From: Squalus acanthias | Taxonomy: Eukaryota | Direction of reading: 5' to 3' | Length of the DNA stretch: 64,000 nucleotides | NCBI GenBank assembly: GCA_030390025.1 | Contig: CM059431.1 | Location: forward strand, 150,972,001 to 151,036,000 | Part shown: positions 34,919 to 37,270 of the stretch, one piece after another | How the letters are laid out: each line of letters starts with the position of its first letter | Numbering within the stretch: position 1 is the first letter of the stretch | Position numbers and translations under genes: made by a program | The notes under the pieces: model-generated | Seen by the model: the letters and a program-made list of their open reading frames with translations, nothing else | What the model was told of the DNA's origin: nothing | The model's database searches: none

Positions 34919-37270
34919 TTACACTGCGCTCTCATCGTGCACGCGCACGTAACGTTCTCGCCACTCTCCCGTGTTCTCATGCTTGGTGAGGCGCTTGTCT
35001 CTTTTACAATGTATGAACAAAAGGTATACTACAATAAACACTTGACAGACGACTAAAATGTGGGAGGCTATTCTGACCCATGAGGGCACTTCAATATTCG
35101 TGAACAGATTCCACCACGGTGGAACCACTATGTCCAAAATGTCTGTACCTATCTCGACGGTTTCCTGTTCTAATGTATAGAAATGCTTTTGTGACACCGC
35201 GACGGCTTTCAGAAGTTTGGTTAAATGCTCAGGGAGAGGGGGAATGAGGTATCCAAAATGCGCGACAAATCGCTGCAAGTCGGTGAAATTCTCTTTTACT
35301 GTGAGATGAACAGTGGATGGTTCAGGGATTGGGATAATTCGTTGTTGTGCTACTTGAACTTCAGCCCTGGGTTTAAAACAGAAACTGCTGTCACTCACCG
35401 GACACCGGCTACGGTTTCCATGCTGGTAGTGTTGCGCTGCAGTGGTAACACAATATGTTCCACCCCCGATGTATGCTACCTGCGGAGGCACATGATCTTG
35501 TGCCATTGCCTCCATGGTGCAATTCATGGACTTGGCGCCAGCCGTTCTGAACCCGCACTGTGGTGTTAAAAAGGCATTCAAGTGCTGGGGGCACAGTATT
35601 ATGTGTGCTCCCCTGCCACGACAACCAGAGAGATCTGTACCTGTCATCGTTTGCTCCCAGCGGATGACGTAAGGTGGAACCGCTGCATAACGAATGTGGG
35701 CTCCCCCCTGAATGACACCAATGTTCTCTACCCGATACACCGGGGCGGGCTTTGCTGTGTTGCCCAAAACCGGCATGCGTAATACTATTCCCATAATAGT
35801 ATGGTTTGAACGTCCGCAGTCCACGGGGACTGGGTAAGCTTCTGAAGCTAGCCTGAGCTGGCACGGACTTAATGCGTTCTGAAAAGGGTGGAGCGCCCGC
35901 AGGTGTTTGTTACTTATCCAGGACGGGACCAAACCTTGTTTTAAATCCTCCAAATTACTGCGGCCCTCGCCCAGCAACCACGCCCCGTAAAGCACGCACA
36001 CCTCGTTCTGCGCAGCTTGATCGGATGCATTCCGATCTTCCCTGATCAGGGCATTTACCGTACGCGCATGTTTCTCCAGCTCTGCTATAATTTCCTTTAA
36101 GTGTAGTGTCATGGCTTGGTCCTCGTGCAGACCCGACCCTACCACTTTATTCTCATCTGTAAGAATATCCTTTAACTGTGTTTTTAAACCATTAATCTGG
36201 GTCTGCAGCTCCACACTGTCTAGAGCGTTGACCACAGATGTCCCTGTGTTAAAAGCAGTGAACGCATCGTTCACCAAACCCCTTCTTTGCCTCCCTACTT
36301 GGTCCAAAACTTCCTGCGGTGCGGTGTATAAACTTGTCTTATCAATTTCTGCAAAATCAAACTCGTAAAATTGCCTGAACATCTTGGTCAACAGGACCTG
36401 GTACAACTGTTCCGTCTTTTTGGGGCACCACTCTGGTAACCGTACCTCAGTGAGATTTAAAATCACCGAGGCCACCGCGTAATGTACCCCCTGAAATAGT
36501 ATCTGGTCTGTGGGGACCAGTACCAAACCGTTCCCGGGTCCCTTACTAGTTTTAGGGCACCCTTCTTCCTCAGTTACAACCACCGGAATCGTGGGCGGGG
36601 CTTTGCGTGGGCGCGTAATGAGCTCAGTGGCATTTACTGGGATCGGAGAGTATGGGGCTCCGCACCCCCTGGTGCTCGCATCCCACCTCATCCCCTGTCC
36701 GTTATCCTGCCACTGGTTAATAAAGAATATGGAGATGCCTTTGGGGCAAACGTACTTTGACCCCCACATACAAACATAAATCCCCTCATCCGGTTCCCAC
36801 CATTTGTCCCAACAGACTTTCACTTGTCCGTTTGTCCCCGTAATTGTCCGATGGGTATTATTACCCAGTCGCTCCCACTCAACCGAAGAGTTCCTCATAG
36901 TTTTGCTCAGCTTTCGCAGCCACCACCATCGGCTCAATGGGACATTCCCACTGCAGGTCAAACAAATCCGTTTGCCGACGGTGACGCTGATCCTGGGTGC
37001 GATGATCCGTACTTTGGGGCACATTAAAGAAGTCTCTTTGTAGGCGAACCCCGATGTGCTGGAATACTCCGTTGAGTTCGTTCCCAGCCATCCTGGCCAC
37101 CTTCCCCTGTGGAAATAGGTGCTGGTCCCTTCTGCCTTCCGTCTCCCGGTCCCATCCACCGCGATGGGGGCCGTGTCCCCGGAACATCCAAACACCACGA
37201 CATCCTTGGTGAGGCCCCGATAGGCCAATCCACATCCGATTGCCACGAGCAAAACTAGAAGTCGTTCCAT
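34919..37270 (-). CDS. env: Envelope glycoprotein, 783 aa: signal peptide, Ig-like domain, F-type class I fusion protein, TM anchor
   Basis: Signal peptide MERLLVLLVAIGCGLA; C..W..DEGIYVC motif; furin site RQRR followed by GLVNDAFTAFNTGTSVVNAL; heptad repeat; Cys-rich region; TM segment ILVVCQVFIVVYLLFI; short tail; several N-x-S/T sequons. Lies after pol. Confidence 0.9.
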   Translation of the reverse strand: MERLLVLLVAIGCGLAYRGLTKDVVVFGCSGDTAPIAVDGTGRRKAEGTSTYFHRGRWPGWLGTNSTEYSSTSGFAYKETSLMCPKVRIIAPRISVTVGKRICLTCSGNVPLSRWWWLRKLSKTMRNSSVEWERLGNNTHRTITGTNGQVKVCWDKWWEPDEGIYVCMWGSKYVCPKGISIFFINQWQDNGQGMRWDASTRGCGAPYSPIPVNATELITRPRKAPPTIPVVVTEEEGCPKTSKGPGNGLVLVPTDQILFQGVHYAVASVILNLTEVRLPEWCPKKTEQLYQVLLTKMFRQFYEFDFAEIDKTSLYTAPQEVLDQVGRQRRGLVNDAFTAFNTGTSVVNALDSVELQTQINGLKTQLKDILTDENKVVGSGLHEDQAMTLHLKEIIAELEKHARTVNALIREDRNASDQAAQNEVCVLYGAWLLGEGRSNLEDLKQGLVPSWISNKHLRALHPFQNALSPCQLRLASEAYPVPVDCGRSNHTIMGIVLRMPVLGNTAKPAPVYRVENIGVIQGGAHIRYAAVPPYVIRWEQTMTGTDLSGCRGRGAHIILCPQHLNAFLTPQCGFRTAGAKSMNCTMEAMAQDHVPPQVAYIGGGTYCVTTAAQHYQHGNRSRCPVSDSSFCFKPRAEVQVAQQRIIPIPEPSTVHLTVKENFTDLQRFVAHFGYLIPPLPEHLTKLLKAVAVSQKHFYTLEQETVEIGTDILDIVVPPWWNLFTNIEVPSWVRIASHILVVCQVFIVVYLLFIHCKRDKRLTKHENTGEWRERYVRVHDESAV

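What the first reader, a model, noticed from the sequence alone, without database searches (positions are those of the whole stretch)
34919..36560. Env has F-protein rather than retroviral SU/TM architecture
Seen: the furin site RQRR (36281-36292) lies about 450 aa before the C-terminus. It is followed by a fusion-peptide-like segment, a long heptad repeat, LRMPVL..PVYRVENIG, a Cys-rich block, a second helix and the TM segment. I see no immunosuppressive domain or CX6CC motif. Known: retroviral TM subunits are usually much shorter, and this layout matches paramyxo/pneumovirus F1 and baculovirus/errantivirus F. Inference: the envelope is shared with non-retroviral lineages.
Basis: partly seen in the sequence, partly recalled or inferred. 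Interest (0 to 1): 0.75.

Follow-up and report, generated by a model that had tools for sequence, protein, structure and literature searches.

The report
Young shark-type retrovirus with F-type envelope
A young endogenous retrovirus with all three genes unbroken, likely in a shark or ray genome, has an envelope protein predicted to fold like the fusion protein of measles- and RSV-type viruses; such envelopes are known from foamy viruses and lokiretroviruses, but this virus likely belongs to neither, which bears on what the first retroviral envelope looked like.

Summary
Observation confirmed. env (34919-37270, minus strand, 783 aa) has RQRR at 36281-36292, 453 residues before the end, and no CX6CC. 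The AlphaFold model (pLDDT 73) matches paramyxo/pneumovirus F (Foldseek E 8e-11) and, about equally, foamy-virus Env (Z 9.8 against 10.6 for NDV F). The gene sits in a 12.6-kb provirus with 99.6% identical LTRs and unbroken gag, pol and env.

What is added: the RT does not group with lokiretrovirus-type rows (AU p=0.006). It lies among basal retroviruses with frog and coelacanth elements and shares snakehead-retrovirus-like traits.

Likely mechanism: furin-primed class Ib fusion with an N-terminal attachment head. Cleavage, fusion and binding are untested.

The scan reported this same family many times on other DNA of this genome. Verdict: new variant of a known kind, moderate interest.

The parts
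43892..45488 (-). 5' LTR, 1597 bp, TG...CA
   Evidence: 6 mismatches to the 3' LTR
32898..34494 (-). 3' LTR, 1597 bp; AATAAA copy at about 33140-33145
32894..32897 (.). 4-bp target-site duplication (second copy 45489-45492) inside a simple-repeat array
43869..43886 (-). Primer-binding site, likely tRNA-Arg; overlaps the first ATG of the gag frame
   Evidence: 25 of the 28 tRNAs called over a matching 3' end were Arg (58 mostly microbial loci, 30 without a call)
42076..43887 (-). gag, 603 aa from the first ATG: coiled-coil region about aa 97-156, one CCHC knuckle at aa 520-535; ends in TGA in frame with pol
37534..42075 (-). pro-pol, 1513 codons: protease, RT, tether, RNase H, integrase; likely made by stop readthrough
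37284..44349 (-). Likely env intron (GTGAG donor in the 5' LTR; pyrimidine tract and CAG acceptor 13 nt before the env ATG)
   Evidence: sequence; joint in one contig of 1 of 8 runs laid
34919..37270 (-). env ORF, 783 aa
37223..37270 (-). Likely signal peptide, aa 1-16
   Evidence: hydropathy
36560..37222 (-). N-terminal extension, aa 17-237; probable Ig V/I-set-like core at aa 88-170 (36761-37009) with C106, W116-118 and DxGxYxC167
   Evidence: weak (model pLDDT 33)
36281..36559 (-). F2-like segment, aa 238-330, ending in the furin-type site RQRR (36281-36292)
36221..36280 (-). Fusion-peptide-like segment, aa 331-350, with a G-x-S-x-x-N motif found in 11 of 15 homologues checked
35939..36220 (-). 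HRA and central helices, aa 351-444
35378..35785 (-). Beta-rich domains with LRMPVL, PVYRVENIG and the conserved Cys block, aa 496-631
35126..35245 (-). Likely HRB / membrane-proximal helix, aa 676-715
   Evidence: pLDDT about 60-75
35009..35080 (-). Transmembrane anchor, aa 731-754, followed by a 29-aa tail

Best explanation
This is the unbroken env gene of a young endogenous retrovirus, likely of a cartilaginous fish, and its product is predicted to be an F-type (class Ib) membrane-fusion protein with a likely attachment domain added at its N-terminus. Shown by the sequence: the provirus, the three open frames, the furin-type site, the long post-cleavage part and the missing CX6CC. Predicted by modelling: the F fold, in which the short pre-cleavage segment (aa 238-330) stays part of the fusion core as F2 does. 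Inferred: env is made from an mRNA spliced from the 5' LTR; the trimer is cut at RQRR; aa 17-237, with a probable Ig domain, bind the cell as spike S1 does; HRA then extends, plants aa 331-350 in the target membrane and folds back on HRB. By RT the virus is a basal, snakehead-retrovirus-like (class III type) retrovirus, not a lokiretrovirus. The envelope was most likely inherited from an ancient F-type retroviral Env shared with lokiretroviruses and foamy viruses.
For: Model of aa 231-783 from 34 rows: pLDDT 73.1, pTM 0.57. Foldseek PDB: hPIV3 F E 7.9e-11; all 37 listed rows are paramyxo/pneumovirus F. BFVD: lispivirus-type glycoproteins E 1e-13 to 1e-11, baculovirus F 6.9e-11, WEHV-1 Env 1e-7, WDSV Env 3.3e-4, feline foamy Env 7.4e-4. 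VIA against 48,161 chains: the top 16 rows are all F or foamy Env (NDV F Z 10.6, rmsd 18.5, 334 aligned; foamy prefusion Env Z 9.8, rmsd 5.8, 304 aligned; RSV F Z 9.0, rmsd 5.9, 310 aligned); the next row has Z 5.2. ESM Atlas top hit PF00523 at 0.94, 209 features shared. RT+tether tree of 27 rows: loki-type and gypsy rows are split from all others at 100/97; holding the window group with the two loki-type rows is rejected at p-AU 0.0059. By eye, the four lokiretrovirus Envs whose protein starts were displayed begin right after the signal peptide with a GP-x-x-G/I-x-V/L stretch like aa 245-252 here, and lack the extension. Homologous Envs occur in gene models of 1 skate, 6 sharks, 3 frogs and the coelacanth.
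Against: No sequence-level hit to PF00523 or to any PDB F protein, alone or as a profile (0 of 34 members), so the fold rests on a predicted monomer with TM-scores of only 0.3-0.4 and high rmsd. The fusion peptide is weakly hydrophobic. The N-terminal model failed (pLDDT 33, best Z 4.6). The splice joint was seen in one contig, 23 letters on its short side, in 1 of 6 RNA-guessed runs. A clade with snakehead retrovirus is not recovered in the tree (AU p 0.056). No foamy RT was in the trees. The integrase tree is unresolved and puts close frog/coelacanth relatives next to loki-type rows (88/78).
Confidence: 0.75

Rival explanations
1. It is simply a lokiretrovirus in a new host class (cartilaginous fish), with the known F-like Env.
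For: F-like Env whose F2 start resembles loki Envs by eye; dual RNase H; integrase closer to a loki-type row (42%, 215 bits) than to SnRV (35%, 130 bits); nearest named Pols are labelled NYNRIN-like.
Against: RT motifs follow the PQGF pattern of SnRV and other retroviruses, not the PFGY pattern of the loki rows displayed. RT identity is 35-39% to loki-type rows and 53% to frog/coelacanth elements. AU p 0.0059. The loki paper found none in 6 chondrichthyan genomes.
Confidence: 0.07
2. A mosaic: a basal retrovirus lineage took its env (and perhaps integrase) sideways from a lokiretrovirus or another aquatic F-bearing virus, instead of inheriting it from the common ancestor. The fusion mechanism would be the same.
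For: Loki-like Env start and integrase affinity on a non-loki RT. Domain swaps are common in this group (PMC7947760). The best BFVD hits are lispivirus-type and fish filovirus glycoproteins.
Against: F-type Env also occurs in foamy and walleye viruses, which one ancestral gene explains more simply. Homologues only about 20% identical span sharks, frogs and coelacanth, so any swap is very old.
Confidence: 0.3
3. It is a fish foamy-like virus with a trimmed foamy Env.
For: Foamy Env is tied for best structural match with a low rmsd; the splice donor lies in the LTR upstream of the poly(A) signal, as recalled for foamy viruses; RT scores 182-192 bits against foamy RT structures.
Against: Gag has a CCHC knuckle and runs in frame into pol. 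Env starts with a short signal peptide and has no large domain inserted before the cleavage site. MLV-type RT scores higher (205-211 bits).
Confidence: 0.05
4. The F resemblance is an artefact of long helices plus a beta block, and the protein is a divergent class Ia Env or non-fusogenic.
For: No sequence-profile support; modest TM-scores.
Against: Matches span aa 245-700 including the beta domains; two structure aligners and a language model agree; no class Ia chain is among the listed hits.
Confidence: 0.04

Closest known systems
Lokiretrovirus Env (Wang & Han, PMC7947760; read: parts 1-3 of 4 of the main text, supplement searches and supplement part 71)
   Same: Signal peptide, RXKR-type site, fusion peptide, coiled coil, TM; similarity to paramyxo/pneumovirus F; similar F2 start by eye; dual RNase H in Pol.
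   Different: RT outside the loki clade; about 220 extra N-terminal residues; host class in which the paper found none (0 of 6 genomes).
Foamy virus Env, class Ib (Fernandez et al., PMC11468914; read: section 10 and passages; PDB 8rm0/8rm1)
   Same: F-type core in a retrovirus; N-terminal subunit contributes to the fusion domains.
   Different: Foamy Env has its receptor-binding domain inserted between the subunits; here the added module is N-terminal, the arrangement that paper describes for coronavirus spike. Gag and gag-pol layout are not foamy-like.
Snakehead retrovirus and the SnRV-like / clade Huo ERVs, including elephant-shark CmiERV lineage I (passages of PMC12193657, PMC6001957, PMC4422223, PMC2717909, PMC13517186)
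   Same: Gag coiled coil with one zinc finger, gag-pol readthrough layout, RT motifs, likely Arg primer (the Arg primer of SnRV is recalled, not read), shark hosts known.
   Different: RT only 43.5% identical and a clade is not recovered; TGA rather than UAG; 29-aa rather than 136-aa Env tail; no accessory ORF over 66 aa after env; SnRV Env could not be compared.
Paramyxo/pneumovirus F (PF00523), baculovirus F (PF12259), errantivirus F-type Env (bioRxiv 10.1101/2023.10.26.564294, passages)
   Same: Predicted fold and order of elements.
   Different: 8-15% identity in structural alignments; no N-terminal Ig-like module recalled in these.

Membership tests
Class Ib / F-type fusion proteins | Basic cleavage site followed by fusion peptide and a long (about 450 aa) C-terminal subunit with HRA, HRB and TM | tested here: met
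   fusion peptide only mildly hydrophobic
Class Ib / F-type fusion proteins | Shared core built from both subunits (F domains I-III) | tested here: met
   On a predicted model: matches span model residues 15-471, both sides of the cut; Z 10.6-9.0, Foldseek E 8e-11
Class Ib / F-type fusion proteins | Trimer, cleavage activation, membrane fusion | not testable with these tools
   needs experiment
Gamma-type (class Ia) retroviral Env | CX6CC in TM and immunosuppressive domain | tested here: not met
   (motifs as named in PMC2717909; ISD regex recalled)
Gamma-type (class Ia) retroviral Env | Short TM subunit that holds the whole fusion machine (about 200 aa, recalled) | tested here: not met
   453 aa after the cut
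Lokiretroviruses | RT monophyly, sister to other retroviruses | tested here: not met
   (p-AU 0.0059). The loki references are two eel Pols assigned by eye to the published rows, not named sequences
Lokiretroviruses | F-like Env and dual RNase H | tested here: met
Lokiretroviruses | Integrase close to CGIN1/NYNRIN | tested here: inconclusive
   window row unresolved; CGIN1 itself not in the tree
SnRV clade / clade Huo | RT clusters with snakehead retrovirus | tested here: inconclusive
   P0025 matches the published SnRV RT row almost letter for letter by eye; 43.5% identity; not sister in the tree; p-AU 0.056
SnRV clade / clade Huo | Gag coiled coil plus one zinc finger; gag-pol by stop readthrough | tested here: met
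   against passages; stop is TGA here, UAG in SnRV
SnRV clade / clade Huo | tRNA-Arg primer site (SnRV trait recalled) | tested here: inconclusive
   25 of 28 called tRNAs with this 3' end are Arg, mostly microbial; host tRNAs not available
SnRV clade / clade Huo | Env homologous to SnRV Env | not tested
   SnRV Env sequence was not obtained
Spumaretrovirinae | Gag without zinc finger; Env with a receptor-binding domain inserted between the subunits | tested here: not met
   CCHC at Gag 520-535 (foamy trait); F2 segment only 93 aa (foamy trait)
Spumaretrovirinae | RT clusters with foamy viruses | not tested
   no foamy row in the trees; only phmmer scores
Immunoglobulin superfamily (N-terminal module) | B-strand Cys, C-strand Trp, DxGxYxC F strand, beta-sandwich fold | tested here: inconclusive
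   Motifs present; Pfam Ig_3 E 0.46; Atlas 0.85-0.87; nearly all of the 50 VIA rows are Ig-fold chains but Z<=4.6 on a pLDDT-33 model

The most novel reading that the evidence does not exclude
F-type (class Ib) Env is the ancestral retroviral envelope, kept in lokiretroviruses, foamy viruses, walleye epsilonretroviruses and this undescribed shark/frog/coelacanth lineage, while gamma- and beta-type Env is a later replacement. This lineage independently built a spike-like architecture by bolting a captured immunoglobulin domain onto F as its receptor-binding head, and this unbroken gene makes that directly testable.
Probability: 0.35. Interest if true: 0.75.

Novelty: new variant of a known kind. 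Interest (0 to 1): 0.48.

Why it matters
The lokiretrovirus paper lists four scenarios for the origin of retroviral Env and says it cannot choose between them. An F-type Env on an RT that lies inside the ordinary retrovirus radiation, together with the foamy and walleye hits, favours the scenario in which F came first and orthoretroviruses replaced it. The N-terminal module would be a third way of attaching a receptor-binding part to the F scaffold within retroviruses. An unbroken natural gene allows cleavage, fusion and structure to be tested. The headline claim itself, a retroviral Env that looks like F, is in print.

Tried and rejected
Sequence searches found no fusion family: Pfam for Env and for all 34 alignment members, PDB by phmmer and by profile.

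My first guess, lokiretrovirus, was rejected on RT motifs and the AU test.

No related locus in viral contigs. No whole genome is held, so copy number and host tRNAs could not be checked. ARAGORN found no tRNA in the window.

The N-terminal model was too poor for a fold claim. The integrase tree was unresolved. The 121-row RT tree is the quick tree only and flags long branches; the 27-row set was chosen by me from those hits after seeing that tree.

SnRV Env, beta/gamma Env and coronavirus spike are not among the listed fold hits; that does not exclude them.

No RNA holder was listed as RNA on record. The splice joint was not listed in the second four runs. Contig depth was not used as copy number or expression.

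Papers not held: Hart 1996, Chen 2022. Ten paper searches listed no paper describing an F-type Env in SnRV-like or shark ERVs. Subscription papers and bioRxiv supplements were not seen and may cover it. The loki supplement is held cut.

A complex (trimer) prediction was not run.

Full report
Setting. The window is mostly simple-repeat DNA. Inside it lies a complete provirus on the minus strand, 32898-45488. Its two 1597-bp LTRs differ at 6 sites, begin with TG and end with CA, and are flanked by a 4-bp duplication. gag (603 aa), pro-pol (1513 codons, in frame behind one TGA) and env (783 aa) are all unbroken. An LTR distance of 0.38% gives about 0.9 My at the mammalian rate used in PMC7947760; a slower host clock would make it older. 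The host is inferred to be a cartilaginous fish because the closest named Env relatives are skate and sawshark gene models (63-79% identity). Near-identical DNA is held by 20 of 24 listed runs, from 11 studies and 7 coded organism labels, and the laid contigs show many variant sites, as expected of a multi-copy family.

Observation. The fusion-peptide-like segment is only mildly hydrophobic, but its G-x-S-x-x-N motif recurs in 11 of 15 homologues checked.

Fold. Sequence methods were blank. A full HMMER scan found 45 relatives. I aligned 33 of them, leaving out very short or clearly chimeric ones, with aa 231-783; the model has pLDDT 73. Foldseek against PDB lists only paramyxo/pneumovirus F (best E 7.9e-11, TM about 0.3-0.4). 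Against BFVD it lists lispivirus-type glycoproteins, baculovirus F, paramyxovirus F and also the Envs of WEHV-1, WDSV and feline foamy virus. The independent aligner ranks NDV F (Z 10.6), foamy Env (9.8) and RSV F (9.0) as near ties, with unrelated rows at 5.2 and below. The ESM Atlas puts PF00523 first at 0.94. So the protein works, by prediction, like a class Ib fusogen as defined in PMC11468914 (section 10).

Which virus. I first took it for a lokiretrovirus, whose Env is published as F-like (PMC7947760). The RT says otherwise. Its motifs match the SnRV row rather than the loki rows of that paper's alignment. The Pol search returned 334 hits, 120 listed. These included a protein matching the SnRV RT almost letter for letter and eel proteins of loki type, both assigned by eye, which gave internal references. 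In the 121-row quick tree and a 27-row careful tree the window groups with or near frog and coelacanth elements (about 53% RT identity) on the retrovirus side of a well-supported branch that excludes loki and gypsy rows. Forcing it with loki is rejected (p-AU 0.0059). Forcing it with SnRV is neither rejected nor supported (0.056). No foamy RT was in the trees. The Gag coiled coil, single zinc knuckle and readthrough layout agree with SnRV as described in PMC2717909 and PMC13517186 (passages), and the primer site is probably for tRNA-Arg. Against membership in SnRV proper: TGA instead of UAG, a short Env tail and no sizeable accessory ORF. The integrase is closer to a loki-type row than to SnRV by score but is unresolved in the tree. 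SnRV-like ERVs are known in all major vertebrate groups and in the elephant shark (passages of PMC6001957, PMC4977317, PMC4422223).

The extra head. The four loki Envs whose protein starts were displayed begin straight after the signal peptide with a stretch that, by eye, corresponds to aa 245 onward here. This Env has about 220 residues before that point. They hold C106, a Trp cluster and DEGIYVC (C167), the spacing of an Ig V/I-set domain (spacing recalled), and every weak hit points to Ig folds. No single test is significant and the model failed (pLDDT 33). Distant homologues from a bamboo shark and frogs also have N-terminal extensions; one is labelled Ig-like by UniRef and another has a weak V-set hit (E 0.045). 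A receptor-binding role is inferred from position only.

Expression. One contig of one RNA-guessed run joins 44349 to 37284 with GT..AG ends on the minus strand. The sequence there is a canonical donor and acceptor 13 nt before the env ATG. It was absent from the other 7 runs laid, so this is a hint only.

Literature seen. PMC7947760: three quarters of the main text plus supplement parts. PMC11468914 and PMC12583693: one section each plus passages. Passages only: PMC12193657, PMC6001957, PMC4977317, PMC4422223, PMC11089739, PMC12690878, PMC13517186, PMC2717909, bioRxiv 2023.10.26.564294 and 2024.03.17.585361. F-type Env in loki, foamy and errantivirus elements is in print. I found no held paper describing it in SnRV-like shark or frog ERVs, or an Ig-like head (searches named under Tried and rejected), but two key papers were not held. 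Earlier agents of this scan reached the same reading on other copies in this genome; that is not independent support.

Verdict. The broad inference is known. The specific combination (non-loki, non-foamy RT, loki-like F Env, probable Ig head, young unbroken copy) is a new variant. Interest 0.48.

Noticed in passing
BFVD hits Q9WHI8 and A4GTG3: Walleye epsilonretrovirus Envs (WEHV-1 E 1e-7, WDSV E 3.3e-4) match the F-type model, although PMC12690878 lists epsilonretrovirus envelopes under gamma-type.
   Followed up: no
BFVD hit A0A2P1GML9: The glycoprotein of a fish filovirus (Wenling thamnaconus) is the second-best match (E 1.2e-13), i.e. F-type, whereas filovirus GP is classed as Ia in PMC11468914.
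   Followed up: no
window 43869-43887: The first ATG of the gag frame overlaps the primer-binding site, 5 nt after the 5' LTR; the true start may be a later ATG.
   Followed up: no
window 37534-38400: Pol ends in about 280 low-complexity residues after the integrase, with a roughly 40-nt tandem repeat (37592-37712) that is one unit shorter in contigs of two runs.
   Followed up: partly
window 25720-27426 (-): A 568-codon frame that reads like a CR1-type LINE reverse transcriptase (recognised from recall) inside the (GA)n array.
   Followed up: no
P0005, P0006, P0156: Shark gene models named Niban-1-like, cadherin-related-5-like and fbxo15 contain pieces of this Env: mis-joined predictions or exonised env fragments.
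   Followed up: no
P0164 cluster, P0138, P0132: Full-length related Envs in frogs (16 cluster members in Mantella, 12 of the 15 listed being 677 aa) and a bamboo shark suggest other young families or kept genes.
   Followed up: partly
window 29164-29363 and flanks 29400-32897, 45489-64000: A 200-N assembly gap; the provirus is inserted in a long C/T-rich simple-repeat array.
   Followed up: no
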